Shown here piece by piece: positions 1 through 34,503 of a stretch of DNA of 40,741 bases; within the stretch, counting starts at the first letter, position 1; every line of letters begins with the position of its first letter. The notes under the pieces are model-generated. The model was not told where the DNA came from, made no database searches, and saw only the letters and a program-made list of their open reading frames with translations. Source of the DNA: a virus (taxonomy: Duplodnaviria > Heunggongvirae > Uroviricota > Caudoviricetes). Made by a program: the position numbers and the translations under genes. The DNA is taken from the IMG/VR virus record IMGVR_UViG_2711768062_000003, positions 1 to 40,741 of that record; one strand, written 5' to 3'.

Positions 1-1194
1 ATGATCACCGACACAAAGCTCAGGAAGGCGCTCGGCAAGAAAAGAGATGATATCGAGATTATTTCTGATTCGCACGGGCTCAACGCCAGAATCAGCCAGG
101 CCGGAAAAATATCATTTTTCTATCGGTATCGCTGGGCCGGTAAAGCGGTAAAACTCAATGTTGGTGATTATCCTGCAATGAGTATCACCCAGGCAAGAGA
201 GCGTCGCCAACAATTCAGAAACTGGTTAACTGAGGGACTGGATCCGCGAGAGCAGGTGAAGCTGGATAAGCAGACCCGACAGGAAGCGATGTCCGTTGCC
301 GAAGCGTTCAATTACTGGATTGAAAGGCACTGTATCGCTAACGGGCTAGTTAAAGTCGATTACTATCGCCAGGTGTTTGAGAAACATATCGCCGAACCGA
401 TGAAGAATGTCAAAGTCGATAACACAGCGAAAATGCACTGGATCAACGTCTTCGATTCTATAGAAAGCAGGGTGATGGCTCATTACATGCTTTCGCTGTG
501 CAAACGGGCCTTTAGGTTCTGCGTTAACAGAAGTGTGATCGCCTCAAACCCACTCGAGGGATTACTGCCATCTGATGTCGGGCAAAAGCCTAAAAAGAGA
601 ACTCGCAGGATGGACGATGACGATCTGCGCAAAATCTATCAGTGGTTGAAAAGCCATATGTCGATAGAGTCCGTTTTCCTGGTGAAATTTATTATGCTTA
701 CCGGATGCCGTACGGCTGAGATTCGACTTAGTGAGAGATCATGGTTTCGATTGGATGATAATGAGTGGGTCGTGCCTGCGGGCAGTTATAAAACTCGGGT
801 ACATATTAGAAGGGGACTCTCAGACGCCGCCGTTAACCTGGTCAGAAATCACCTCAAGAAAATAAACACCAATCACCTGGTGACTTCACAACGTAAAATT
901 GATGGCGGGATCAAAGATTCGCCCGTTCATTCACCTGTGGCATCCAATTACGCCCGTTCTATTTGGAATGGAACAGGTATGGCAGAGTGGTCGCTTCATG
1001 ATATGAGGCGGACGATAGCCACAAATCTCTCTGAGTTAGGTTGCCCGCCGCACGTAATTGAAAAGCTGCTCGGGCATCAGATGGTGGGGGTTATGGCGCA
1101 TTACAACCTTCATGACTATATCGATGATCAGAAACACTGGCTCCGCGTTTGGCAGAGCCATCTTGAAGAGATCATCGGAGAGCCCTTCAGTTAA
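1..1194 (+). CDS. Tyrosine-type site-specific integrase (phage integrase family)
   Basis: 397-aa ORF starting at ATG at position 1; C-terminal catalytic region with conserved Arg/His/Tyr context ([11 protein letters not shown] ... [18 protein letters not shown]); convergent with an excisionase-like gene. Confidence 0.85.
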
Positions 1195-1433
1195 TTTATC
1201 TTCTTTTTATCCTCCCACTCTTTGATTGACTCAGAGCGCCAGCGGTTAGGGTTGCCGGGCCAGTCAGGGGGTGGGAACGGGCATACGAAGCCCCGAGGCA
1301 TTGTGTCTGCACTTTGCCATGACCAAAGGGTTTTGCGTGAAATTTTGTAGCGACTGGTCAGGTCTGACGTTACCAAAATATCATCCATAGCTCTCTCCAG
1401 TTGCCCGTTCGGGCCATTCAAAATCTTTTTCAA
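1191..1433 (-). CDS. AlpA-family excisionase / transcriptional regulator (Xis-like)
   Basis: 80-aa ORF with motif [15 protein letters not shown] typical of AlpA/Xis HTH proteins; adjacent to the integrase; true start may be the internal Met (MDDIL). Confidence 0.6.
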
Positions 1434-1672
1434 CCAACCTGCCCGGGCAGGGAGCGGAGACGGCGCATGCCGGTCATCGCTGTGGCCACGTAGCTCGCCT
1501 TTCGGTTCACCACCTCCACCCAGACTTTCACGCCTTCAACCTTCACCGTATAAGTCTCTTTCATCTTGCTTCGCCCATAGTCGCCATATGTTTGCAAGTG
1601 AGCTGCCAGCGCGATGTCGCATGCTTGGCGAGCTAAAGGTGATTGCTTACTTCCTCGATTGATCAGTCGCAT
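1430..1672 (-). CDS. Hypothetical early-operon protein
   Basis: 80-aa ORF; strong SD (AAGGAG) 6 nt upstream of ATG; 4-nt overlap with downstream gene (translational coupling). Confidence 0.5.
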   Translation of the reverse strand: MRLINRGSKQSPLARQACDIALAAHLQTYGDYGRSKMKETYTVKVEGVKVWVEVVNRKASYVATAMTGMRRLRSLPGQVG

Positions 1673-1710
1673 ATAATCTCCTTGAGGGAGGGTTACCCCT
1701 CCCGGTTTCG

Positions 1711-2829
1711 TCAGGCCACGTATTCCGGTTTCATATCCGCCAGGGTGATGCTGAATTGATCGTGCAGTTCATCGCCTAAGTGACGCTTTGAAGATGCAAG
1801 CATGCGCTCGGCTTCAGCGAACCGTTCGGCTGCATGCGGCTCGTCGGGCTGGGGCAGGGATTTAATAGCCTCCTCAACCTTGTTGCGTGCATCCACTAGG
1901 TAATAACGCTTTACGGCTTTGTTTTTCAGCTCGGTGAATAGTGCGGATCCCAGCGTAGCTTTCGCCGTTTCAATGTCGGCACGCAGCGATTTGGCGCTAT
2001 CCACGTCCTGAGCAGATTCGATGCGTTCGCGGAAATCATCGGCAAGAGAGTCGACATTTACCGACGATTCCTGTGCGCTTTGCGTGGTTGTGACGGTGTC
2101 ACATGAGATATCAGCCAGGCTAACGCGTTGCGGCGTTGGGTTGATCTCTTTTTCTGTGCGCTGTTCAATCTCATCAGGGGTGTACACACCAAGAACAACT
2201 GCAGGGCAATACAGGCGCGCCCAGTATTTGAGTGCCAGATAAGCGATCTGCTGTTTCGGGTTTGATACCCAAAGTGGAGAATTACGTGTGATTACGCTGG
2301 AGAGGAAAACAGGCTCTCCCCAGGTGATATCACTTTCACCGCGAATAACGGCACCTACCCGTACCGACAGTCCTTGTTCATCAGCACTTTCCCAACCGCG
2401 TACCATTTCTTTCTTGTCGTACGTCCCGCCACCTTTCGCAGGCTTTTTAACGGTTATCTCGCGGCTGCTGGCACATTTCGACCAGTCGCCCTCGTACTCA
2501 TAGTGAAAGCGGCCAACGATGGCGTTTGAGCTGGAGATCACCGCATTAACCAGTTGCGCTTCGTATCCCAGGACACCGTTAACCAGGTGCGTCTTTTGCG
2601 CCACGGCGTAAGGGTTCATACCCCACTGCATCGCCTGCATGATGATGGCCATGCAGTCTGCCGGATTGCCGCGGAGGTGCTCAGGCACCGTTACGGCTGC
2701 CTGTGCCATCAACCCGGCGACAGACTGAAGCTGGGTTAAAGCCTGCACGTTGAAAATGGCATTGCTGGCTGAGATCGTGTTTGGAGTCTGCTGTTCAGCG
2801 GTTACGATATTCGTGTTTTCCATCATCAT
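1711..2829 (-). CDS. RecT/Bet-family single-strand annealing recombinase
   Basis: 372-aa ORF; N-terminal core (IIMQAMQWGMNPYAVAQKTHLVNGVLGYEAQLVNAV) matches the RecT/Red-beta pattern from memory; immediately downstream of the exonuclease gene as in recET modules. Confidence 0.65.
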   Translation of the reverse strand: MMMENTNIVTAEQQTPNTISASNAIFNVQALTQLQSVAGLMAQAAVTVPEHLRGNPADCMAIIMQAMQWGMNPYAVAQKTHLVNGVLGYEAQLVNAVISSSNAIVGRFHYEYEGDWSKCASSREITVKKPAKGGGTYDKKEMVRGWESADEQGLSVRVGAVIRGESDITWGEPVFLSSVITRNSPLWVSNPKQQIAYLALKYWARLYCPAVVLGVYTPDEIEQRTEKEINPTPQRVSLADISCDTVTTTQSAQESSVNVDSLADDFRERIESAQDVDSAKSLRADIETAKATLGSALFTELKNKAVKRYYLVDARNKVEEAIKSLPQPDEPHAAERFAEAERMLASSKRHLGDELHDQFSITLADMKPEYVA

Positions 2830-2834
2830 TCCCC

Positions 2835-5800
2835 TTATGCCTGAGTACGCAGCGCTTCAAGGCGGCGCAGGTCGAAGTCGTTCAGTTCGTCGGTGTAGTC
2901 AGCAGTGATTGGCGCTGGCCATTCACCTGTGTCGAATCCGGTTGCGATATTGCGCATCGCTTTGCGGTACTCGAGCATACCCAGCTCCAGTAGTTCAGCG
3001 GATGCCTCGATGATGGCGATCCAGTGGTAGTTCTCGTCTTTGTTGACGAAAATCCAGAAGAACTGATCCAGCGCTGCGGTTTCGCAGTACATAGCCGCGC
3101 TCAGGTGATAATCACGTTCAATAATTTCCCGGTGTAGCCTGGCGCGCAGGCTTTCCTGCTTAACATTCCACATGCTGATGGTTTTCAGGTCTGCACCTAT
3201 ACGCACGCCATCCAGGTCGATCTCAAGGTCAGGGCGCACACGAACTTCCAAGCCCGTCTCCTCGTCAAAACCAAAGTAGCTCACCTCAACGGCTCGGCTA
3301 GGGTGGGTCAGCAGCATGCCGGCGGTCGGGTGTGCCAGAAGCGCTTTTTGAATATTCAGCGCGGTGCTCAGCTGCTGGCGGGTGACCAGCACTTTTCCTT
3401 CCGGGTTATCGCGCCAGGCATCCAGCAGTTCGTCGGCAAATACGGCATCTGGTTTGACTGCCTTCACGGCCTGGATCATGTCTGCTTTGGTACCGGACAC
3501 TTTCAGTGGTGCCGGTTTCTGTGCTTCCTGAGCCACAAGGTCAGGGTTGATGATTGCCAACTGCTCCAGCAGCGCGTCACGGCTGCCGCTGGTTTTAACC
3601 GGCGGCGGCAGGGTGGCGTTGTACTCTTTAATGCATGCCTTCATTGCCGTCGCCGTCTGCTTCTGGTCACCATCAATACGCTGGAAGTCAGCTGGCAGCG
3701 CCATATAGTTCTGTGCCGTTTCTTCCAGGTTAGCGCCAAGCGGAACCTGCGGCGGCAGGGTGGCGTTGTACTCTTCCAGTAACACCTTGATGTCGTCGGC
3801 AGACAGCAGCGCCGGCAGGCTGGCATTGTGCTCATCGATAAAGGCGCGCAGGGTCGCGGCCGTTGTGAATGCGCCTTCAGGGATCACCGGTTCAACGCTG
3901 AATTCTGCGTCCAGTAGTTCAGGCTGCAACGCCAGCGCATGCACCAAGTTGCCCATGTCCAGCACCGCTGAGCGCTCTTTGACGATGGTTTTCTCTACGT
4001 GGCGCGCATTGAAGTACATCAGCGAAACGCGCGCATCTTTCACCTGGGTTGAGCTGATGCCGTTGGCGGCGTGGTAAACCTCGTTTGGCAGCCCTTCATA
4101 GCGGCCTGGCTCGAAATAAGCGGGATAAACAACAGCTGGTTCGTCAGATTGCGCTTCTGGCTCGGTTTGTGCTGCAACTGGTTCGGTTTGGCTTACAGAA
4201 TCGCTATTTTTGGCGACAGAATCCGTATTCTGGTTTACATCGTCCTTCTGGCTGGTATCTGACTCTTCACCAGACTCCAGACTGCTTTCGCCTGGCTGTA
4301 CTTCATCACCAACATTTTTTTCATCACTGACAGTTTCTTGAACCTGCACATTGCTGGTGGTTTCCGTAGCCTGTTTCGTGCCATGAGTTGCTGAGTTCTG
4401 CAGTAAAGCCGTAACATCGAATATTCCGTTGCCGACATTTTTAACCAGTTCTTGTTCGGCTTTATGTGGTTGTGCTGTCGCTTCCTCTGCGCGGCGGCGT
4501 GCTTCTTCTTCACGTACGCGTTGCAGGTTCTCTTCGTGAGTGCAGAAGGATTTGCGCGGAGACTCCTTACCTTCAGGTTGGGGAATTTCCTGTGCTGCGG
4601 GTTCAGCCTCATGCAACGGCAATAACTCGACCGCGGAATTGAACGCGGCTGTCATGGTCTGGTTAACAAATTCCAGGTGAGCGACAGGAGTTAAATGAAT
4701 ATTTTCCGGTGCGATACGTACCAGGTTAAAAATAGCCGTGCGGTTAACACCCAGAACGCCTGGCTGATTGCGCAGGATGTTGCTCCATGATTTCCATGGT
4801 TCTTCTTTTTTGGTCACGATTTCTTTAGCGCGACGAAGAATGCTGCCCGGGATCTCGAAGTGGTTGAAGTCCATAGGCAGAAGGGCACATGCAATCTCTA
4901 AATCGAGAGTGTCAAGGGTATGGTATGTATCAGGTCCACGGTCAGTGACGTAACCGCCGTTGGCATTGGTTCCGGAATCAGTACGCTGCACACTACTGAT
5001 GCGATTACCGGCGGCCCATTCGCGAACGAGGATACCGCGGTCGATGTGATCTGTAGCGAACCACAATTTCAAAAACTGGATTAAGGTTGCGAGTTCAGGG
5101 ATTTTTCCATCGACAGGGAAGACTTTCTTAACGGCATTCACGACTTTATGAATATCGTGCTCAATGGCTTTTTTGAATGCTTCCACATTCTCAGCTGCCA
5201 GCAGCAGGTTCTGGACGTACGCGTCATCGGTGTCCATCTCAAGGCGGACAATCTCATTTTTCTGCCCTGCGTCGATGTGATAGAGATATTCACCATCACC
5301 GATGAACTGAGCCAGTACGCGCTGGCGGAATGGCAGGGTGGCAACAACGATCAGGTTCGGTTGCTGTGTCTGCTGGGATTGCTCTTCGGTATCGACTTCA
5401 CCATCAACGACGCCACCTTCTGCCCGGCCGTTCTCGTCGGTCTGGATACCGTCCTCAACAGTGAGATCTTGACCAGTTGTAACGTCAGCAGCGTTGCTGG
5501 TTTCAGTTTTGAGCAACTGCAACTTACCACTGCGCCAGTCTTCTACCAGTTGATTGCGGTCACCGGCATCGGTGTTCACCCAGTCAGACATGAATGCAGC
5601 GATCAATCTTGGTTCGTGCTCTTCGTCTGGTGTGAAAATGTCCTTAACCGCCCGAATCATTTTCCACTCAGCATTCAGGCTGAGTTTGGCGGTCGCGGGC
5701 ACATCGTTCCTTGCCACAAGCAGGCTATGGAGATATGTATTGCCTTCATCCAGTGACATTTCGCTGGCAGCCAACTGCTGCTCTTTAGTGACGTGGGTTT

Positions 5801-6224
5801 GGTATTTATCGTTCATCAGATGGACGGCAAAGCGGACCGCTGGAGTACGGTTTTCAACCGGGACAATTTCGGACGCAGTCGCATCTTCAACGATTACGGT
5901 CGGAGTAGGTGTGTAGGGGGCGTCAACGGAACCAGTAGACACACCAGCGGCTTTTGGCAGCCAGGTGCGCCCATCGTCCTGAAGCTCGTAGCGATCACAC
6001 CAGGTAAAATCAACTTCACCTTCTTTCGGCAGGCCGTCGACAACTGGGAAATCAGTGCGAATCGGTTTGGCGTAGTCCTTACCCCGACCTGTTTCGATAC
6101 CTGCATCTTCCAGCGCAACATCCAGCATCAGATTGGCGCGAGCCTCGGTTTTAGCAGTGAACCAGACCACTGCATCTTGCTTTCCGGATTTCTGAGTGGC
6201 TTTAACCACATTAAAGAATTCCAT
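2835..6224 (-). CDS. RecE-like exonuclease VIII (long N-terminal region, C-terminal PD-(D/E)xK nuclease domain)
   Basis: 1129-aa ORF; C-terminus has RPDLEID ... ADLKT (PD ... DxK) nuclease motif arrangement; paired with RecT-like gene; acidic low-complexity linker and internal repeats. Confidence 0.7.
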   Translation of the reverse strand: MEFFNVVKATQKSGKQDAVVWFTAKTEARANLMLDVALEDAGIETGRGKDYAKPIRTDFPVVDGLPKEGEVDFTWCDRYELQDDGRTWLPKAAGVSTGSVDAPYTPTPTVIVEDATASEIVPVENRTPAVRFAVHLMNDKYQTHVTKEQQLAASEMSLDEGNTYLHSLLVARNDVPATAKLSLNAEWKMIRAVKDIFTPDEEHEPRLIAAFMSDWVNTDAGDRNQLVEDWRSGKLQLLKTETSNAADVTTGQDLTVEDGIQTDENGRAEGGVVDGEVDTEEQSQQTQQPNLIVVATLPFRQRVLAQFIGDGEYLYHIDAGQKNEIVRLEMDTDDAYVQNLLLAAENVEAFKKAIEHDIHKVVNAVKKVFPVDGKIPELATLIQFLKLWFATDHIDRGILVREWAAGNRISSVQRTDSGTNANGGYVTDRGPDTYHTLDTLDLEIACALLPMDFNHFEIPGSILRRAKEIVTKKEEPWKSWSNILRNQPGVLGVNRTAIFNLVRIAPENIHLTPVAHLEFVNQTMTAAFNSAVELLPLHEAEPAAQEIPQPEGKESPRKSFCTHEENLQRVREEEARRRAEEATAQPHKAEQELVKNVGNGIFDVTALLQNSATHGTKQATETTSNVQVQETVSDEKNVGDEVQPGESSLESGEESDTSQKDDVNQNTDSVAKNSDSVSQTEPVAAQTEPEAQSDEPAVVYPAYFEPGRYEGLPNEVYHAANGISSTQVKDARVSLMYFNARHVEKTIVKERSAVLDMGNLVHALALQPELLDAEFSVEPVIPEGAFTTAATLRAFIDEHNASLPALLSADDIKVLLEEYNATLPPQVPLGANLEETAQNYMALPADFQRIDGDQKQTATAMKACIKEYNATLPPPVKTSGSRDALLEQLAIINPDLVAQEAQKPAPLKVSGTKADMIQAVKAVKPDAVFADELLDAWRDNPEGKVLVTRQQLSTALNIQKALLAHPTAGMLLTHPSRAVEVSYFGFDEETGLEVRVRPDLEIDLDGVRIGADLKTISMWNVKQESLRARLHREIIERDYHLSAAMYCETAALDQFFWIFVNKDENYHWIAIIEASAELLELGMLEYRKAMRNIATGFDTGEWPAPITADYTDELNDFDLRRLEALRTQA

Positions 6225-18281: not shown

Positions 18282-18989
18282 ATGGCAAAACCGGACTGGG
18301 GAAGCCTCCAAAGACGGTTCCTCGCCGAGCATGCCAAAACAGGTATATCGCCGAAAGAATGGTGCGAAGCGCAGGGACTGAATTATACATCTGCGCGCAG
18401 GTACATCAAAAAGCCTGCTGCGCAAAAAACTGCGCAAAAGGATGTGCGCAAAACTGCGCAAAGCCAGATGCCGCATGTAGTAGTGGTTGAAGCCTCTACG
18501 CCAGTTGAGGGCGATACTGCGCAGGAAAACGCAGGCATCCTTAAACCACAGCATGAGCAGTTTGCGCAGAACATCGCGCGGGGCATGCCGCAGAAAGAGG
18601 CGGCGATATGCGCGGGCTATTCGCCTTCACGCGCTGATTCCCAGGCATCGATACTTTTCAAACGCCCGGATGTGCGCAGGCGCATCAGAGAGCTGCGTCA
18701 GGATGCCGCTCTGCTCGTATCATTCGACGCGAAAGACCTGGCTGAACTCTCCTACAAATCGGCGAAAGCCGCGCTGGACGCTGAGAAGTTTGGGCAGGTA
18801 GCCCCGAACATCAAAAACGCCGCGCAGCTCACCGGCATCGACATGAGCAACAAAACGGAAGTGAATGTCGATCTGGCTGGCCTGAGTTACGGAAAGGTCT
18901 GCATCGTCACGCCGTCGAACTGCCCGCCTGAAGCGTGGGCAGCGCACATGGATAAGCTGCGCGAGGGAAAGCAGACAGCCCAACAATAA
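18282..18989 (+). CDS. Terminase small subunit
   Basis: 235 aa; motif [23 protein letters not shown] ... [18 protein letters not shown] characteristic of small terminase HTH domain; directly upstream of the large subunit. Confidence 0.7.
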
Positions 18990-19024
18990 TCGATGGTGTC
19001 CTGTACTCATTCAGTAGCGACTGG

Positions 19025-20230
19025 GTGCTCGGGACGCTGTACGACGCACCGATAGGCTCTGTCCGCTGGCGCTGGACGTATGGCGGTCGTGGTGGCGGCA
19101 AATCGGTAGAGATTGCCCGCGCGCTGGTATTGTTGGGCGCTATCGAGCCAATGATCATCCTGTGCGCTCGTGAGTTCCAGAACTCTATCAACGATTCGGT
19201 ACTGGCACTGCTGGACGCTGAAATCCACTCGCTTGGCCTGGCGCACTTCTACAAGGTCAAGAACAACGAGATAGAGGGCAGCAACGGCACGCGGTTTACC
19301 TTCAAAGGTCTGCGCAACAACATCCAGAGCATTAAGTCGATGCACGGCATCAAAATATGCTGGGTAGAGGAAGCGCAAACCGTATCGCAGGATAGCTGGG
19401 ACATCCTCGGTCCGACCGTTCGCGCCAATAAATCCGAAGTGTGGGTGTCGTTCAACCCGCGCGAAGCTACCGACCCGACCTACGCCATGATGGAGCGGCA
19501 CCGCGCCGATCCCCCTGATGGCGGAGCGATTATTACCTGCGTCAACTACTGCGATAACGCATTCTTCCCTGACGTGCTCAGGCACGAGATGGAATACTGC
19601 AAGCGTATCGACTTCGAGGCTTACGAGCATATCTGGCTGGGGCTGCCGAAGGCGCTCAGTGAGGCCGTTATCTTCTCCGGCAAGTACCGGGTTGAGGCAT
19701 TCTCTGACGACCTGTGGAAAGAAGCCGATCGCCTGTTTTATGGGGCTGACTTCGGTTTCGCCAACGACCCATCCACTCTGGTCCGTTGCTTCATTATCGG
19801 CACCCGATTGTACATCGAGTACGAAGCCTACGGCGTCGGCGTCGAGCTGGACGAAATGGCGCAGTTCTATGACTCCATCCCGGAATCCAGAAAATGGCCC
19901 ATTCACGGCGACTGCAGCCGGCCGGAGACCATCAGTTATCTTTCGCGTCAGGGCTTCATCATCGACGGCGCTACCAAATGGCCGGGGAGCGTTGAGGACG
20001 GCATTACCTACCTGAAAGGGTTCGAAGAAATCATCATCCATGAGCGCTGTAAGCACATGGTCGATGAGGCGCGCCTTTACTCCTACAAAACCGACCGCAT
20101 GACCGGCGAAGTGCTGCCGGTTGTCGTGGATAAGCATAACCACCTGTGGGATGCCGTGCGCTACTCGCTGGATGGATACATCACAAGCGTTGGCGATCTC
20201 GGTGTCTGGGCCGCCCTGGGCAAACAATAA
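19025..20230 (+). CDS. Terminase large subunit (ATPase/nuclease)
   Basis: 401-aa ORF (GTG start); Walker A-like GGRGGGKS and ATPase/nuclease architecture; follows small subunit. Confidence 0.85.
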
Positions 20231-27664: not shown

Positions 27665-29155
27665 ATGCCTAACGGCTTATCTGTATCACGCGTCGTTCGC
27701 GTGCAGGTCGCGCTCGCCGTTCGCGCGGCGGCCGGGCGTAACTTCGGCGCGCTGCTGGTTCTCGGCACCGCCGACGTAATCACTGCCCCGGAAGTGATGC
27801 GCCTTTACCAGGATATCGAAAGTGTCGCCACCGACTTTGGCACTACCGCTGAAGAGTACAAGGCGGCAAACCTTTACTTCCAGCAGTCGCCGCAGCCCCG
27901 CGATCTTTATATCGGAAAACTGGAACGCGCCTCCAGCCCGGCAACGGCCGGCAAGCTCACTGGTGCTGTACTGACCTCTGCAGAGCAGGCAATCGCAAAC
28001 TTCACCGCGGTTGACGATGGCGCGATTAAGATCTCGGTGGACGGCACTGTTAAAACCGTAACGGGTATCGACCTGTCAGCGGTGACCGATCTGGCCGGAG
28101 TAGCGACGGCCATCACTGCGAAACTTACCGGCACCGCCGTTTCCTACGTGGCCGGCTCGAATCAGTTTGTGGTGACGTCTTCCACTACCGGGGCCACCTC
28201 AGCAATTGGTATTCCTGTTGCTGCCGGCACTGGCACTGACCTGGCGCCGCTGCTGGGCATTGACTCAGCGCATAACCCAACCGTGTCAAACGGCCAGGAT
28301 GCTTCATCTTCAGTGCTGCCGTCGGTGAACACAGCGCTGAACTACTCAGCCGACTGGTACGGCCTGGTTATCGCCGATACTGCAATGACGGACCAGGACC
28401 ATATCGATGTTTCTGCCCTGATCGGCTCTGCGAGCGATTCCCGGGTGTACGGTGTGACGACTGCGGCGGCCGAGGTCCTGGACTCAACCAGCACCACGGA
28501 TATTGCCTACAGGCTGAAAGCCGCCGGTTATGGCCGCACGTTCTGCCAGTACAGCCAGGTGCCTTATGCCGCAGCCTCTGCCTTTGGTCGCGCGTTCACA
28601 GTAAATTTCCTGGGTAACAACACCACCATTACCCTGAAATTCAAGCAGGAACCGGGCATTACTGCCGAGACGATCACCGCGCAGCAGGCCGATACGCTCA
28701 AGGCAAAAAACTGCAACGTATTTGTGCGCTACGCCAACGATACCGCCATCATCCAGGAAGGCGTGATGTCCAACGGCGATTTCTTCGACGAGCGCCACGG
28801 CCTCGACTGGCTGCAGAATTACGTCCAGAACAACCTCTGGAACCTGCTTTACACCTCAACCACCAAAATCCCGCAGACCGAAGCGGGCGTGACGCGCCTG
28901 GTGACCAATGTCGAACAGTCGATGGACCAGTCTGTAAACAACGGTCTGGTGGCACCGGGAATCTGGAACGGCGGTGACGTCGGACAGCTGACATCAGGCG
29001 ATATGCTGACCAAAGGCTATTACGTTTACGCGAACCCGCTCAACGCCCAGGCGCAGGCAGATCGTGAAGCGCGTAAGGCGCCGGTGATTCAGGTAGCAAC
29101 CAAACTGGCGGGGGCTATCCACTTCGCTGATGTATTAATCGACGTGGTGCGCTAA
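27665..29155 (+). CDS. Tail sheath protein (contractile tail)
   Basis: 496-aa ORF followed by tube-size gene, chaperone with frameshift and tape measure; size equals Mu L sheath. Confidence 0.65.
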
Positions 29156-29166
29156 GGGGGCACTGA

Positions 29167-29607
29167 ATGAGCACTTATTCTTTTCTGGATATCACGGGGT
29201 CAATGACTGGCCCCACCGGGGTGATTGACCTCGGCGCCGGTTCTGCCAACTCCGAAGAGGGCATTACCATCGCCATGGTCGAAAACAAAAACACCATGAC
29301 GATCGGCGCTGACGGCGAGGGCATGCACTCCCTGCACGCCGGCAAGGCTGGAACGGTAACCGTTAACCTTCTGAAAACCTCGCCGGTGAACAAAAAGCTG
29401 TCTCTGGCCTACAACGCGCAAAGCCAGTCCTCAGCGCTGTGGGGTAATAACGTCTTTGTGTTCCGCAACACTGCATCTGGCGACATCATGACCGCGCGCG
29501 GCGGCGCCTTCCAGAAGCACCCCGACTGGCAGAACGCCAAAGAGGGCGGGACGGTGGCCTGGGTGTTCGACTGCATCAAAATTGACCCGTTCCTGGGGGA
29601 GTATTAA
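29167..29607 (+). CDS. Tail tube protein
   Basis: 146-aa ORF between sheath and chaperone genes. Confidence 0.6.
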   Translation: MSTYSFLDITGSMTGPTGVIDLGAGSANSEEGITIAMVENKNTMTIGADGEGMHSLHAGKAGTVTVNLLKTSPVNKKLSLAYNAQSQSSALWGNNVFVFRNTASGDIMTARGGAFQKHPDWQNAKEGGTVAWVFDCIKIDPFLGEY

Positions 29608-29610
29608 TTC

Positions 29611-30036
29611 ATGGAAATTACTATCAAGGATCAGCAGTACCGTATCGCTAAGTTAAGCGTTTTCGAACAGCTGAAGGTATCCCGCAAGCTGCTGCCGGTT
29701 CTGGCGGGTCTGGTTTCTGACTTCCGTAACATCCAGACGAAGCTGAATGCCAAAGACACCGAAGGCGCGATGGAAAGTATTCTTCCGAAGATCGCTGGCG
29801 CCGTTTCCGGCCTCAGTGATGATGATGTGAATGCGATCCTTTTTCCCTGCCTGCAGGTGGTGGCGCGCAAACACTTGAGCGCCTGGGTGCCGGTGTGCCA
29901 GCAGGGCACCATGGCCTTTGACGATATCGACCTGTTCGTGATGCTGCAGCTTGTGGCGCGGGTGGTCGCCGATTCGCTGGGAAATTTTTTGCAAGGACTT
30001 CCTACCAGCGAGACGAACACCCAGCCTGCGGAATAA
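29611..30036 (+). CDS. Tail assembly chaperone (G-like), short form
   Basis: 141-aa ORF immediately upstream of tape measure; open -1 frame downstream extends to 30224. Confidence 0.6.
   Translation: MEITIKDQQYRIAKLSVFEQLKVSRKLLPVLAGLVSDFRNIQTKLNAKDTEGAMESILPKIAGAVSGLSDDDVNAILFPCLQVVARKHLSAWVPVCQQGTMAFDDIDLFVMLQLVARVVADSLGNFLQGLPTSETNTQPAE
29985..29991 (+). other. Candidate -1 programmed ribosomal frameshift site (T TTT TTG) producing an extended chaperone, 29611..30224
   Basis: Slippery heptamer in the chaperone frame; -1 frame is open from here to TGA at 30222-30224 (about 78 extra codons, no start codon of its own), overlapping the tape-measure start. Confidence 0.45.
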
Positions 30037-30216
30037 CCTTTAACACCCTGCCGGGCGGTGAGGATTACATCCTTCGCCCGGCGCTCGCCTTCAACCTCGA
30101 TCAGAAAGACCTCGACAGCGGTGCAGTGGACCTGTGCCGCATCGCGCTGCTTAACGATTACCTCGATATGCGTGACGATAACGACGCGCGCGTAGCCAAA
30201 TGGAGAGCCCAGAACA

Positions 30217-32196
30217 ATGGCTGATACTATCCGTGATTACCTGGTCTCTCTGGGGTTCGATATCGACGGCGCGGGCCAGGCGAAGTTTGAAGCCACGCTC
30301 AAAGGTGTGGCCGCGAACGTCGTAAAACTGGGGGCCATAGTTGAGTCGACGGGGCTGGCCATTGTGGGCTTCACCGCCTCGATCGCCAGCGGCCTTGATA
30401 AACTCTACTGGGCCGCGGAACGCACCGGGGCATCGGTCAACGGCATCAAGGCGCTTGGCTATGCTGCCTCACAAACCGGCTCCAGCGCCGAGGCTGCCCA
30501 GAACTCACTGGAGAGCCTGGCGCGCTTCATGCGCAGCAATCCCGGCGCCGAAGGCTTCCTGAACCGCCTGGGGGTGCAGACCCGGGACGCTTCCGGACAG
30601 ATGCGCGACATGTCGGCTATCTTCACCGGCGTCGGCCAGCGCCTCAGCAGCATGCCCTATTATCGAGCCAATCAGTTCGCGCAGATGCTGGGCATTGACG
30701 AAAACACGCTGATGGCAATGCGGCGAGGAATGTCCGGCTTCACGGCTGAATACCAGTCGATGATGCAGAAGACAGGCTTCGATGCTGACAGGGCCGCGCA
30801 GCAGTCCAACAAGTTCATGACCTCAATGCGCAACTTCGTTTCGCTACTGGGGATCTTGCGCGATAAGGTTGGCTCGAATCTGGCCGGCGGCCTGAGCGGC
30901 ACGCTGAACAATCTCAGCAAGCAGATGCTGGAGAACTGGCCGAAGATAGAGGGCGTGGTCACGAAGATAGTGAAGGGGGTGCTCTTTGCTGCTGATGTCA
31001 TTACCCAGATGGCGTGGCGCGTCTCGCAGGCGGTAGGCGGCCTGATTGAGTGGTTTAAAAAGCTGCCGCCGGATATACAGCAGCTAATCATGCTGGTGTC
31101 CGGGCTGGTTTCGGCGTGGCAGCTGCTTAACGCTGAGTTCCTCAAATCGCCGATAGGTATCGTAATCGCGCTAGGCTCGGCGCTGTTCGCGCTTTACGAC
31201 GACTACAAAACCTGGAAAGAAGGCGGTCAAAGCCTGCTGCCCTGGGATAAATGGGAGCCAGAAATAGAGGCTGCCCTGAAATCGCTTGGCGAGCTGCGGG
31301 ATTCTGTGAAGGCGATAGGGGTTGAAATCGCAAAGCTGCTCAATATCAACCTCAAAAACTGGACCCTTAAAGGCGACATCGACAACCTCACTAAGCAGTT
31401 CGGTGAGTTTGGCAAGATGATTAAGATGATTGGCGACCTGATAAACGCCATCAACGAGGGGCGTTGGAAAGATGCTTATGCGATCGGCAAGAACCTGCTG
31501 GCACAAGGGCAAGGCCAGGATGCTCTACCTGCAGTATCTGACAGCGCTAACAATACTGCTGACTGGATAGAGGGCAAGACGGGGTTCGACCCGCGAAGCA
31601 TCGGGAAAACAATAAACGGGTGGATTTTCGGCAAAGAAGAGGGCGGCTCAGACCAGCAGGAGAGCGGCCCGGGCAAGACGCTGGCCGACCGTAACAACAA
31701 TCCTGGCAACCTGCGCCCCGTCGGCGGCACCGGTTTTACCTCTCATCAGACGCCGCTTGATGGTTGGATGGCAATGGCCAGGCAGATCCGTCTTTATTTC
31801 ACCGGAAAAAGCGCGGCCGCCGGGTATGAAAAACTCCAGTCAATATGGGACATCATCCACAAATACGCACCTGCCAGCGACAACAACGACCCCGAGGCCT
31901 ATTCGAACTTCGTAGCCAATATGATGGGCGTGGGCGCTAAGGACACGCTGAACCTGAGCGACCCGCAGCAGTTCAGCAACCTTCTGCAGGCCATGTCCAG
32001 GAAGGAAGGTTACGGTCAGTGGAATTCCCCATTGGCCAGCGTTGCCGCTACGCAGGCAGCCGCGCAGATCAGCCAGGAAACGAACATCAATATTTACGGC
32101 GCGAGCGACCCGGCATCCACTGGCCGGGAGGTTGCCGATCGTCAATCCGGCGTTAATTCCCGTCTTACTCAGCAGCTACAACCGAGGGTCTACTGA
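30217..32196 (+). CDS. Tail tape measure protein
   Basis: 659-aa ORF; Ala/Gly/Met/Gln-rich composition typical of tape measure; follows chaperone/frameshift pair. Confidence 0.8.
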   Translation: MADTIRDYLVSLGFDIDGAGQAKFEATLKGVAANVVKLGAIVESTGLAIVGFTASIASGLDKLYWAAERTGASVNGIKALGYAASQTGSSAEAAQNSLESLARFMRSNPGAEGFLNRLGVQTRDASGQMRDMSAIFTGVGQRLSSMPYYRANQFAQMLGIDENTLMAMRRGMSGFTAEYQSMMQKTGFDADRAAQQSNKFMTSMRNFVSLLGILRDKVGSNLAGGLSGTLNNLSKQMLENWPKIEGVVTKIVKGVLFAADVITQMAWRVSQAVGGLIEWFKKLPPDIQQLIMLVSGLVSAWQLLNAEFLKSPIGIVIALGSALFALYDDYKTWKEGGQSLLPWDKWEPEIEAALKSLGELRDSVKAIGVEIAKLLNINLKNWTLKGDIDNLTKQFGEFGKMIKMIGDLINAINEGRWKDAYAIGKNLLAQGQGQDALPAVSDSANNTADWIEGKTGFDPRSIGKTINGWIFGKEEGGSDQQESGPGKTLADRNNNPGNLRPVGGTGFTSHQTPLDGWMAMARQIRLYFTGKSAAAGYEKLQSIWDIIHKYAPASDNNDPEAYSNFVANMMGVGAKDTLNLSDPQQFSNLLQAMSRKEGYGQWNSPLASVAATQAAAQISQETNINIYGASDPASTGREVADRQSGVNSRLTQQLQPRVY

Positions 32197-33079: not shown

Positions 33080-34150
33080 ATGACTATTAACTGGAATCGC
33101 CATTTTGAACTGCGGCTTCTGAACGACAAGGGGAATGGCATATCCCTGTCGGACTTTAAAGTTACCTTCGCAATCGACTGGTTTAACTCGATGTGGCCAC
33201 GTGTGGCGACGCTTAAAATTTACAACCTCAAGCGTGACACAATCACCCGGATTACGGGGGATGAGTTTTCTCGCATTACCATCATAGCCGGTTATAACGG
33301 CCTGGCGCCGACGGTTACTGAAAGCGAGGTTGGGCAGGTTACCGAGATTTCATCTGAGCAAACCGGCCAGACGCGCGGGCAAAATTACGGAGTCATTTTT
33401 GATGGGGAGATTCGTTTTACGATAACCGGGCGCGATAATCCTACCGATATTTTTACGCTAATTCAGTCGGTAGATGGTCATAAGGCGTTCAACGAAGCCG
33501 TATCGTCCGGCAGCCTGGCGGCAGGATATAAGCTTGCCGACGTGCATACACTTCTGATGAAGGACTTTTCGCCTTACGGCATCACCCAGGGCATCACCGG
33601 GCAGTTCCCTGACAGGGTGATGCCACGCGGTCGCGTCTTCTTCGGCGCAACGCGCGACTACATGAGCAACCTAGCGGCGCAGTGCGAGGCTAACTGGCAA
33701 TTTGTCGACGGCCAGCTGCAAATGGTGCCTGAGAATAAATATCTCCATGAAGCGATCGTGCTTAACACCAAAACTGGCCTGGTCGGTATGCCTCAGCAAA
33801 CCATGGGGGCAGGCGTTAATGTGCGCTGTCTCATTAATCCAAACATTCGGGTTAACGGGCTTATTCAGTTGAACCAGGACTCGGTGTATCGCTCGCAATT
33901 ACCGAACGATGAGATCCAAAGATCACAGGCAAGGATTACTGAGGCAAATGATAATGGTAATCTTAGTACAGGCAGCGCGACGCTTGCGCAGCCCGCCAGT
34001 GTGGCAACTGATGGCGTTTACATAGTTCAGTCAATCAGCTACACCGGCGATACGAGAGGGAATCCGTGGTATATGGATCTCATGTGTATGGCCAGAGGGG
34101 CGCGTGATTTACAATCGAATACGGCCCTACAGCGAACGGCTCCACAATGA
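33080..34150 (+). CDS. Baseplate hub-like protein (Mu gpP / late control D-like position)
   Basis: 356-aa ORF after tape measure; size and position match Mu gp44. Confidence 0.55.
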   Translation: MTINWNRHFELRLLNDKGNGISLSDFKVTFAIDWFNSMWPRVATLKIYNLKRDTITRITGDEFSRITIIAGYNGLAPTVTESEVGQVTEISSEQTGQTRGQNYGVIFDGEIRFTITGRDNPTDIFTLIQSVDGHKAFNEAVSSGSLAAGYKLADVHTLLMKDFSPYGITQGITGQFPDRVMPRGRVFFGATRDYMSNLAAQCEANWQFVDGQLQMVPENKYLHEAIVLNTKTGLVGMPQQTMGAGVNVRCLINPNIRVNGLIQLNQDSVYRSQLPNDEIQRSQARITEANDNGNLSTGSATLAQPASVATDGVYIVQSISYTGDTRGNPWYMDLMCMARGARDLQSNTALQRTAPQ

Positions 34151-34503
34151 AAAAAATACTTTTTTTGGTTTCTTTAGCATTCGTCAGTTTTTCTTCTACA
34201 GCGGCAAACACCGCTTATATGAAGTGTGGTCCCTTTACTTTCTCAACCTCATCAAGCAACGACGGATATCCGAGGATAAACGGAGCAAAGCCTGATAGTC
34301 AGAAGGTGACATTCCTCAAAAAAGAGGGAGATTATGACAATATTAAAATGCAATGGATTGTCATGAATGAGAATTCTGGGCAGCGCTATGGTCTTGATTA
34401 TATAAAACGCAATGGGAGAGGGATACTCAATGCCGAGGCCATCAGAATGAACATGAATGAACCTCGAGTGTTTGGAACTTACGACTGCGTGAAGGCTAAG
34501 TGA
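34147..34503 (+). CDS. Small secreted protein (cleavable signal peptide, 2 Cys), AT-rich moron
   Basis: 118 aa; MKKILFLVSLAFVSFSSTA-ANT signal peptide; ATGA overlap with baseplate gene stop; AT-rich unlike flanks. Confidence 0.55.
   Translation: MKKILFLVSLAFVSFSSTAANTAYMKCGPFTFSTSSSNDGYPRINGAKPDSQKVTFLKKEGDYDNIKMQWIVMNENSGQRYGLDYIKRNGRGILNAEAIRMNMNEPRVFGTYDCVKAK

What the first reader, a model, noticed from the sequence alone, without database searches (positions are those of the whole stretch)
29611..30224. Conserved-type -1 programmed frameshift in the tail assembly chaperone gene
The chaperone ORF ends at 30036, but the -1 frame is open from the T TTT TTG heptamer (29985-29991) to a TGA at 30222-30224 that overlaps the tape-measure start, and this 78-codon extension has no start codon of its own. 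This matches the G/GT-type frameshift conserved upstream of tape-measure genes in tailed phages.
Basis: partly seen in the sequence, partly recalled or inferred. Interest (0 to 1): 0.45.

Follow-up and report, generated by a model that had tools for sequence, protein, structure and literature searches.

The report
Conserved tail-chaperone −1 ribosomal frameshift
This E. coli prophage uses the well-known ribosomal slip just upstream of its tape-measure gene to make a short and a long form of its tail-assembly chaperone; the call is right, but it is an ordinary example of a known phage trick, and current RefSeq annotation misses it.

Summary
The chaperone ORF (29611-30036, Pfam Phage_TAC_15) lies between the tube gene and the tape-measure gene. 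Its -1 frame is open from 29922 to the TGA at 30222-30224, which overlaps the tape-measure ATG at 30217.

The slippery site is larger than reported. G GGA AAT TTT TTG (29979-29991) holds three overlapping X XXY YYZ heptamers and is invariant in 33 related loci.

The 180-nt "gap" after the chaperone stop shows clear codon periodicity in the -1 frame. This holds upstream of its only early start codon, GTG 30126, which is not conserved. The extension matches Pfam DUF6889.

Distant relatives from Burkholderia, Acinetobacter, Ralstonia, Providencia and Bordetella keep the same layout. They use different heptamers at the same spot. GenBank already annotates the homologous frameshift in phages Mulock and Magia, whereas RefSeq E. 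coli genomes call a 32-aa "DUF6889 family protein" instead.

No 3' stimulatory structure was found. A conserved SD-like GGTGG lies 14-17 nt upstream.

Verdict: a real, new member of a known kind, of low interest.

In passing, a more unusual candidate turned up: a conserved G GGA AAR heptamer at the end of terS (18965-18971) that leads into a terL frame with no conserved start codon.

The parts
27665..29155 (+). Tail sheath gene (context)
   Evidence: Pfam DUF3383 E 3e-140; phrog_205 'tail sheath'
29167..29607 (+). Tail tube gene (context), the presumed binding partner of the long chaperone form
   Evidence: Pfam KPP10_Orf10 E 9.5e-58; the same family is listed as Phage_Tube_PhiTE and annotated as DUF3277 in RefSeq
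29611..30036 (+). Tail assembly chaperone ORF, zero frame. It gives the short product of 141 aa (G-like).
29961..29965 (+). SD-like GGTGG, a candidate 5' stimulator. It sits inside a nucleotide-invariant patch, GTG GCG CGG GTG GTC (29953-29967).
   Evidence: [quoted passage not shown] Synonymous-site entropy there is 0-0.46 bits, against about 1.1 in the gene body. GGNGG at 6-17 nt is an experimentally validated stimulator class (PMC4066793). Its function here is inferred.
29979..29991 (+). Slippery run G GGA AAT TTT TTG, with three overlapping X XXY YYZ heptamers at 29979-85, 29982-88 and 29985-91
   Evidence: Read directly from the sequence. It is invariant in 33 related loci, except that one locus has TTA for TTG.
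29988..30224 (+). -1 frame extension (T-like), 78 codons plus TGA. It has a disordered linker followed by a small helical domain.
   Evidence: Codon-position entropy in the -1 frame is 0.36/0.28/0.93 over 30037-30216. phrog_4364 E 1e-17. In the AF2 model the linker 129-159 has pLDDT below 50 and there is a helix at 175-202.
30102..30215 (+). DUF6889 domain within the extension (fusion residues 165-202)
   Evidence: Pfam PF21829 E 7.5e-12, 45.2 bits against a cut-off of 23.9. The same family is hit by the -1 extensions of 8 relatives.
29611..30224 (+). Predicted frameshift fusion product, 204 aa. The junction reads ...SLGNFFARTSY... if the slip is at either of the first two heptamers, or ...GNFLARTSY... 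if at T TTT TTG.
   Evidence: Conceptual translation; it carries both Pfam domains
30217..32196 (+). Tape measure protein gene. Its ATG overlaps the stop of the extension.
   Evidence: phrog_2276 'tail length tape measure protein' E 9e-222

Best explanation
This is a programmed -1 ribosomal frameshift of the conserved G/GT type.

Most ribosomes that translate the chaperone gene stop at 30036 and make the 141-aa chaperone. A minority slip back one base on G GGA AAT TTT TTG (29979-29991) and read on to 30224. They make a 204-aa protein with the same chaperone domain, a roughly 30-residue flexible linker and a small helical DUF6889 domain.

By analogy with lambda gpG/gpGT and P2 E/E+E', the shared domain would coat the tape-measure protein. 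The extension would recruit the tube protein, so that the tube polymerises around the tape measure. The slip frequency would fix the ratio of the two forms.

The slip most likely occurs mainly with TTT in the A site (A AAT TTT). The two flanking heptamers give further chances to slip. A conserved SD-like GGTGG upstream may act as the stimulator; no 3' structure was found.

What is shown:
- gene order;
- coding in the -1 frame;
- conservation of the site.

What is inferred:
- that the slip actually happens;
- which heptamer is used;
- the stimulator;
- the protein roles.
For: **Gene order.** Sheath (DUF3383), tube, TAC (Phage_TAC_15), then tape measure.

**The extension is coding.**
- It matches Pfam DUF6889 above the gathering score, and phrog_4364.
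- Across 31 distinct relatives, 30037-30216 has entropy 0.36/0.28/0.93 at -1-frame codon positions 1/2/3. The TAC body has 0.35/0.24/1.09.
- The same pattern holds upstream of GTG 30126: 0.41/0.32/0.91.

**No conserved start codon.**
- GTG 30126 is GTA, GTC, GTT or ATC in 11 of 31 sequences.
- 20 of 31 sequences have no canonical start between the slip site and 30125.

**The frame and the site are conserved.**
- The extension is in the -1 frame in all 33 loci where it could be scored.
- The 13-nt slippery run is invariant while flanking synonymous sites vary.

**Distant phages (30-40% identity) keep the layout with different heptamers at the homologous codons**:
- Burkholderia: C CCT TTT
- Acinetobacter: G GGA AAT TTT
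- Ralstonia: G GGT TTT TTC
- Providencia: T TTT TTT
- Bordetella: G GGA AAT

In each, the extension ends within about 10 nt of the tape-measure start. All these extensions hit DUF6889.

**Prior annotation.** The homologous frameshift product is already annotated in Klebsiella phage Mulock and Burkholderia phage Magia.

**Precedent and rules.**
- T TTT TTG is the proven P2 E/E+E' site (PMC3091744).
- E. coli data rank U_UUU/U_UUC A sites above U_UUG and single out R_RRU_UUY (PMC4066793).

**Gene callers rarely find the extension.** It has 22 representatives among 1.84 billion proteins, against more than 540 hits dominated by the TAC part. This is as expected for a frame without a start codon.

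**Structure.** The slip site falls at the end of the last helix of a confidently modelled TAC domain. That domain resembles the HK97 chaperone.
Against: - There is no direct protein evidence for this family.
- No stimulatory RNA structure lies within the usual 4-10 nt downstream. The segment 29995-30045 folds no better than shuffles (z 0.03).
- The strong hairpin at 30049-30084 is 58 nt from the site and shows no covariation.
- One relative, Edwardsiella phage ZHS, has no heptamer, only a T_TTT tetramer. Its extension has its own ATG and is annotated as a separate gene.
- G GGA AAT, A AAT TTT and T TTT TTG were not among the 18 motifs that Sharma et al. selected for high stimulator-free efficiency, so the efficiency may be low.
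- The SD-like motif is absent from the Acinetobacter relative and out of range in the Ralstonia relative.
Confidence: 0.9

Rival explanations
1. The extension is a separate small gene translated from its own start, as RefSeq annotates it: a 32-aa 'DUF6889 family protein' from GTG 30126. Alternatively, it is made by re-initiation at the chaperone stop.
For: - PGAP annotates it this way in E. coli genomes.
- Gene callers elsewhere find ORFs of 46-73 aa.
- Edwardsiella phage ZHS and Burkholderia phage BgManors32 have annotated separate ORFs, with an ATG or a GTG that overlaps the chaperone stop.
Against: - Coding periodicity and amino-acid conservation extend about 45 codons upstream of GTG 30126.
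- That GTG is a non-start Val or Ile codon in 11 of 31 relatives.
- Most relatives have no canonical start anywhere in the first 45 codons.
- No SD motif was seen in the 15 nt before GTG 30126.
- The phrog_4364 match starts at fusion residue 151, which is upstream of the GTG.
- It would not explain the invariant slippery run or the low synonymous variation that begins exactly at that run.
Confidence: 0.04
2. The fusion arises by transcriptional slippage. RNA polymerase adds one U on the T6 run, giving a sub-population of mRNAs in which the two frames are joined.
For: The site contains a run of six T (29985-29990). A T7 allele that fuses the frames exists in some assemblies.
Against: - Known productive slippage needs longer runs, about 8-9 or more (own knowledge).
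- Relatives keep the arrangement with only T4 (C CCT TTT in Burkholderia, A AAT TTT ATT in Acinetobacter) or with no run at all (G GGA AAT ACT in Bordetella). A homopolymer is therefore not the conserved feature.
Confidence: 0.04
3. The open -1 frame and the heptamers are chance features of a G+C-rich spacer, and only the 141-aa protein is made.
For: Long open alternative frames do occur in this window. Three of 366 -1-frame runs reach 100 codons, including a 90-codon run after A AAA AAC in the sheath gene.
Against: - The extension hits a Pfam family in this window and in 8 relatives.
- It shows codon periodicity.
- The arrangement is conserved across bacterial orders.
- No promoter or terminator was found in the gap on the + strand.
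Confidence: 0.01

Closest known systems
Phage lambda gpG/gpGT and the conserved tail-assembly frameshift of Xu, Hendrix and Duda 2004 (reviewed in PMC5009743)
   Same: Two overlapping ORFs lie between the major tail (tube) gene and the tape-measure gene. A -1 slip on an X XXY YYZ heptamer occurs near the end of the first ORF. The second ORF has no start codon. The long form is the chaperone plus an extra C-terminal domain. No 3' structure was found here.
   Different: There is no detectable sequence similarity to gpG or gpT; the families here are Phage_TAC_15 and DUF6889. The phage is a contractile-tail type. The slippery site is a triple overlapping run rather than a single G GGA AAG. There is a candidate 5' SD-like stimulator.
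Phage P2 E / E+E' (Christie et al. 2002, cited in PMC3091744)
   Same: An E. coli myovirus with the gene order sheath, tube, chaperone, tape measure. The slip is a -1 slip on T TTT TTG, and no downstream hairpin is present.
   Different: Pfam returned only Phage_TAC_15 and DUF6889 for this protein, and no P2 family. The sheath and tube families are also different (DUF3383, KPP10_Orf10). T TTT TTG here is only one of three candidate heptamers.
Annotated 'tape measure chaperone frameshift product' of Klebsiella phage Mulock (MN098327) and Burkholderia phage Magia (NC_070954)
   Same: These are true homologues: same Pfam families, same gene order and same slip position. Mulock has the identical GGGAAATTTTTTG run.
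   Different: The TAC region is about 60% identical to Mulock and about 36% to Magia. Magia uses C CCT TTT. Both are database annotations without experimental support; the Mulock genome paper does not mention the frameshift.
HK97 tail assembly chaperone structure 2ob9
   Different: Sequence identity is 12%. Foldseek found nothing significant, and a PDB sequence search found nothing.

Membership tests
Conserved G/GT-type tail assembly chaperone frameshift | A pair of overlapping ORFs immediately upstream of the tape-measure gene and downstream of the major tail/tube gene | tested here: met
   Tube 29167-29607, TAC 29611-30036, extension to 30224, tape measure from 30217
Conserved G/GT-type tail assembly chaperone frameshift | The second ORF is in the -1 frame, overlaps the end of the first and lacks its own conserved start codon | tested here: met
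   The -1 frame is used in all 33 loci that could be scored. No start is present in the first 45 codons, and GTG 30126 is not conserved.
Conserved G/GT-type tail assembly chaperone frameshift | An in-frame slippery heptamer lies in the overlap and its position is conserved among relatives | tested here: met
   The triple heptamer at 29979-29991 is invariant in close relatives. Six of seven distant lineages have a heptamer at the homologous codons.
Conserved G/GT-type tail assembly chaperone frameshift | The second ORF is translated, i.e. under protein-level selection | tested here: met
   Third-position-biased variation in the -1 frame; DUF6889 hits in 9 lineages
Conserved G/GT-type tail assembly chaperone frameshift | Two proteins with a common N-terminus are made in a fixed ratio; both are needed for tail assembly and neither is in the virion | not testable with these tools
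   This needs proteomics and genetics. No data for this family were found in the literature searches made.
Pfam Phage_TAC_15 (tail assembly chaperone family) | Score above the family's gathering threshold | tested here: met
   110.8 bits against a cut-off of 22
Pfam DUF6889 | Score above the gathering threshold, on the -1 frame translation | tested here: met
   45.2 bits against a cut-off of 23.9
Phage P2 gpE / E+E' protein family | Sequence membership in the P2 E family | tested here: not met
   Pfam returned only Phage_TAC_15 and DUF6889. The resemblance to P2 is in mechanism and site (TTTTTTG), not in family.
dnaX-type PRF with a 5' SD-like and a 3' hairpin stimulator | An SD-like element 6-17 nt upstream | tested here: inconclusive
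   A conserved GGTGG lies at 14 or 17 nt from the first two heptamers. Synonymous variation is suppressed there. The background rate of such motifs is 0.165. No functional test was possible.
dnaX-type PRF with a 5' SD-like and a 3' hairpin stimulator | A stable 3' structure 4-10 nt downstream | tested here: not met
   The segment 29995-30045 has MFE -5.1 kcal/mol and z 0.03. The only strong hairpin starts 58 nt downstream and shows no covariation.

The most novel reading that the evidence does not exclude
The site may be a multi-chance slippery run. Four consecutive zero-frame codons (GGA AAT TTT TTG) can all re-pair in the -1 frame. A conserved 5' SD-like element (GGTGG within an invariant 15-nt patch) would drive the slip instead of a 3' structure, and the run would set an unusually high long-to-short ratio.

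On this reading DUF6889 is the tube-recruiting 'T domain' of the whole clade of myophages that carry the DUF3383 sheath and the DUF3277 tube. This would be a variant of the known mechanism, not a new one.
Probability: 0.3. Interest if true: 0.25.

Novelty: new member of a known kind. Interest (0 to 1): 0.15.

Why it matters
The main value is for annotation.

- RefSeq E. coli genomes annotate the extension as a free-standing "DUF6889 family protein" of 32 or 54 aa in the two records examined in full. The same label appears under the matches listed from searches that hit 266 and 337 of 5,426 complete genomes.
- Most deposited phage records of this clade leave the extension unannotated or call it a hypothetical protein.
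- Recognising the frameshift gives DUF6889 a likely role as the C-terminal domain of the long chaperone form, and corrects these gene models.

It adds nothing new in principle to what is known about recoding or tail assembly.

Tried and rejected
**3' stimulatory structure.**
- Folding 29992-30100, 29940-30060 and 29995-30045 gave nothing close to the site.
- The conserved hairpin at 30049-30084 has no compensatory changes and is broken in L029. I rejected it as a stimulator.
- A stem that flanks the slip site (TCGCTGG/CCAGCGA) uses a variable Ser codon and an arm that the ribosome would already have unwound. I rejected it too.

**Other searches that found nothing useful.**
- Rfam and the tRNA scan: no hits.
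- NCBIfam has no model for either domain.
- Literature searches for DUF6889, and for DUF3383 with frameshift, found nothing.

**Natural in-frame fusions as support.**
- The 213-aa fusion P0021 comes from a T7 allele.
- A 99.7%-identical complete genome has T6.
- All of the fully covered complete-genome matches listed span 641 nt or fewer, against the 642-nt T7 query.
- The fusion is therefore a rare allele or a homopolymer sequencing error, and I did not use it as evidence.
- P0144 (201 aa) is an assembly chimera. P0002, P0146 and P0148 look like error-shifted reads.
Full report
**What is there.** The window is an E. coli prophage; the 1.6-kb segment around the site is 100% identical in several complete E. 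coli chromosomes. Around the finding the + strand carries a tightly packed tail operon:
- sheath, 27665-29155 (Pfam DUF3383);
- tube, 29167-29607 (KPP10_Orf10, also annotated DUF3277);
- a 141-aa ORF, 29611-30036 (Pfam Phage_TAC_15, E 8e-32; phrog_1688 'tail assembly chaperone');
- a 180-nt stretch with no listed ORF;
- the tape-measure gene, 30217-32196 (phrog_2276, E 9e-222).

Neighbouring genes here are separated by -4 to +11 nt, so the 180-nt gap stands out.

**Checking the observation.** The zero frame reads ...CTG GGA AAT TTT TTG CAA... and stops at 30034-30036. The -1 frame is open from 29922 to TGA 30222-30224, which overlaps the tape-measure ATG (ATGGCTGA). The +1 frame is full of stops.

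I add two refinements. First, the slippery element is the 13-nt run G GGA AAT TTT TTG (29979-29991), which holds three overlapping in-frame X XXY YYZ heptamers. Second, the extension does contain an in-frame GTG (30126) and ATG (30168), but no canonical start in its first 45 codons.

Chance is unlikely. -1-frame stops occur at 5.4% of codons in the structural genes, giving P about 0.013 for 78 open codons. Outside this site there are 13 in-frame heptamers in 6368 codons.

**Is the -1 frame translated?**
- The conceptual fusion (204 aa) hits Phage_TAC_15 and, in the extension, Pfam DUF6889 at 45.2 bits against a cut-off of 23.9. The extension alone hits phrog_4364.
- I collected 32 related loci from IMG/VR and aligned 31 distinct sequences. 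Positional entropy in 30037-30216 is 0.36/0.28/0.93 for -1-frame codon positions 1/2/3. The chaperone body gives the same signature, 0.35/0.24/1.09.
- The pattern holds for 30037-30125, upstream of the GTG that RefSeq uses as a start: 0.41/0.32/0.91.
- That GTG is GTA, GTC, GTT or ATC in 11 of 31 sequences. Twenty of 31 have no ATG/GTG/TTG anywhere between the slip site and 30125.
- In every locus that could be scored, the extension is in the -1 frame and open across the overlap. The narrowest overlap confines the shift to the equivalent of 29973-30036.
- No promoter-like or terminator-like site lies in the gap on the + strand.

**The slip site.**
- The 13-nt run is invariant in all related loci, with one TTG to TTA change that keeps the heptamer. 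Neighbouring Asp, Ser and Leu codons vary freely.
- Synonymous-site entropy averages 1.0-1.4 bits through most of the gene. It falls to 0-0.2 across 29979-29997 and stays low through the dual-coded overlap.
- Seven distant phages (about 30-40% identity; hits, loci fetched) keep the whole layout. The heptamers differ but sit at the homologous codons:
  - Burkholderia Magia and BgManors32: C CCT TTT
  - Acinetobacter Ab105-1phi: G GGA AAT TTT
  - Ralstonia: G GGT TTT TTC
  - Providencia PSTCR3: T TTT TTT
  - Bordetella: G GGA AAT
- In each, the extension ends within about 10 nt of the tape-measure start. All these extensions hit DUF6889.
- Edwardsiella phage ZHS is the exception. It has only a T_TTT tetramer, and its extension has its own ATG.
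- A changing heptamer at a fixed position is the classic signature of a selected frameshift. It also argues against transcriptional slippage, because several relatives have no long homopolymer.

**Which heptamer, and what stimulates the slip?**
- T TTT TTG is the proven site of P2 E/E+E' (PMC3091744).
- The systematic E. coli study of Sharma et al. ranks A-site tetramers A_AAG >> U_UUC > U_UUU. U_UUG is only 1.8-3.6-fold above background. The study singles out R_RRU_UUY heptamers as unexpectedly shifty (PMC4066793).
- TTT is also the commonest A-site codon among the distant relatives.
- I therefore favour A AAT TTT (29982-29988) as the main site and expect all three to contribute. A slip at either of the first two gives ...GNFFARTSY...; a slip at the third gives ...GNFLARTSY....
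- No stimulatory structure lies 4-10 nt downstream. The hairpin at 30049-30084 is 58 nt away and has no compensatory changes.
- Upstream, GTG GCG CGG GTG GTC (29953-29967) is nearly invariant at four-fold sites. [quoted passage not shown]
- GGNGG at 6-17 nt is a validated stimulator class. The background frequency of any such motif at that distance is 0.165 in this window. One is present in the enterobacterial clade and in four of the six distant lineages that have a heptamer.
- The 5' stimulator is an inference, not a demonstration.

**The proteins.** An AlphaFold2 model of the fusion (46-sequence alignment, mean pLDDT 71) has three parts:
- a confident chaperone domain, residues 1-128, whose last helix ends at the slip site;
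- a disordered linker, 129-159;
- a helical C-terminal piece, with a helix at 175-202.

This architecture matches the lambda model. There the shared domain binds the tape measure and the frameshift-encoded domain binds the major tail subunit (PMC5009743). Transferring these roles to this prophage is an inference.

**Known or new?** GenBank records of Klebsiella phage Mulock and Burkholderia phage Magia already annotate the homologous 'tape measure chaperone frameshift product'. The Mulock paper does not discuss it. RefSeq E. coli genomes instead carry a separate 'DUF6889 family protein' of 32 or 54 aa. Most phage records leave the extension unannotated. As a called ORF the extension is very rare, with 22 representatives in 1.84 billion proteins, which fits a frame that lacks a start. 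The finding is therefore a correct call of a known kind in a family where it has been predicted but not tested. Its value is in annotation.

**Side observation on the fused allele.** A 213-aa in-frame TAC-DUF6889 protein (P0021 and cluster mates, including CDL28562.1 from E. coli ISC7) comes from a T7 version of the run. A 99.7%-identical complete genome has T6. All of the fully covered complete-genome matches listed span 641 nt or fewer. I treat the fusion as a rare allele or a homopolymer error. Its junction, GNFFA, is what a -1 slip would produce.

**A more unusual thing seen in passing.** The heptamer scan also flagged G GGA AAG at 18965-18971. It lies a few codons before the stop of the small terminase gene (18282-18989, Pfam Terminase_2). 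The -1 frame there is the large terminase frame (Terminase_3 plus Terminase_3C).
- In the window that frame opens only at 18956. RefSeq starts terL at GTG 19025.
- In 34 distinct relatives (TerL at least 79% identical) the heptamer is G GGA AAG (21) or G GGA AAA (13), always at the same position.
- The terL-frame peptide directly after it is conserved: GK.DSP.IIDGVLY.FSSDW...[17 protein letters not shown], with the Walker A motif 117 nt downstream.
- Positions 18990-19024, upstream of the GTG, have terL-frame entropies of 0.14/0.03/0.98.
- No start codon is conserved. Six of 34 have none before Walker A. Seven have one only 30 nt upstream of the heptamer, a position closed by a stop codon in the window. 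The rest have starts at scattered positions.
- TerL relatives at 67% identity or less that were inspected have an ordinary SD plus ATG start and no heptamer at the gene junction.
- Database TerL models in the close clade range from 360 to 454 aa. The model in Providencia phage PSTCR3 starts after Walker A.
- A possible stem, GCCCAR/YTGGGY, begins 6 nt after the heptamer and shows a few compensatory changes.
- I found no report of a terS-terL frameshift in the held literature.

The simplest reading is a -1 frameshift that makes a TerS-TerL fusion of 649 aa, in the manner of Gag-Pol. The rivals are initiation at the conserved ATA ATY codons, or re-initiation at the terS stop. This deserves its own evaluation.

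Noticed in passing
window 18965-18971 (heptamer), terS 18282-18989, terL frame 18956-20230; relatives L046-L121, L045: There is a candidate second -1 frameshift that would fuse the small and large terminase.

- G GGA AAG/A is invariant in 34 distinct relatives.
- The terL frame shows coding periodicity (0.14/0.03/0.98) and a conserved peptide from the heptamer onward.
- No start codon is conserved, and 6 of 34 have none before Walker A.
- RefSeq starts terL at GTG 19025, which is GTT, GCG, GTA or GCA in the relatives.
- More distant TerL genes that were inspected have a normal SD plus ATG start.
- No literature report was found.

The predicted fusion is 649 aa with the junction ...LREGK|ADSPTIIDG....
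   Followed up: partly
L035 2476-2492 (T7) versus L044 (T6); proteins P0021 and P0121-P0133: An allele with seven T instead of six fuses the chaperone and DUF6889 in one 213-aa ORF with the junction GNFFA. It is seen in Logan contigs and in E. coli ISC7 (UniRef100 cluster n=10). A 99.7%-identical complete genome has T6. It is either a rare allele that would invert the short-to-long ratio, or a homopolymer sequencing error.
   Followed up: partly
window 30126-30224; L001 2527-2625; L044 777-941: RefSeq/PGAP annotates the tail of the -1 extension as a free-standing 'DUF6889 family protein' of 32 or 54 aa in the two E. coli records examined in full. The same label appears under matches from searches that hit 266 and 337 of 5,426 complete genomes. 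This appears to be a systematic mis-annotation of a frameshift product.
   Followed up: yes
window 29944-29993, compared with L044 and L035: A block of about 50 nt that ends at the slippery run (GCTGCAGCT.GTGGCGCGGGTGGTCGCCGATTCGCTGGGAAATTTTTTGC) is identical, bar one base, between prophage lineages whose fusion proteins are only about 55% identical. The cause is either nucleotide-level constraint (SD-like stimulator plus slip site) or a recombination joint of phage mosaicism.
   Followed up: partly
window 30049-30084: There is a strong hairpin, GCCGGGCG...CGCCCGGC with an inner AGGAT/ATCCT stem. It lies inside the -1 extension, where it encodes LPGGEDYILRPA. It is conserved in close relatives but shows no compensatory changes and is broken in L029. 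It is too far (58 nt) from the slip site to act as a classical stimulator.
   Followed up: yes
L040 (Edwardsiella phage vB_EpM_ZHS) 695-1374: This is the only relative examined without a slippery heptamer at the homologous codons (GGG GAT TTT ATG). Its DUF6889 region has its own ATG and is annotated as a separate 69-aa gene. The frameshift may have been replaced by independent initiation.
   Followed up: partly
window 28705-28711 and 34161-34167: Two other in-frame heptamers have longish open -1 frames: A AAA AAC inside the sheath gene (90 codons open) and T TTT TTG five codons into ORF 34147-34503 (44 codons open). They are probably chance and were not examined in relatives.
   Followed up: no
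window 1-6224: The window starts exactly at the ATG of a tyrosine integrase (1-1194). On the - strand it carries RecT (1711-2829) and a 1129-aa RecE-like exonuclease VIII (2835-6224). The element is therefore a lambdoid-type temperate prophage with a myovirus tail that has the DUF3383 sheath.
   Followed up: no
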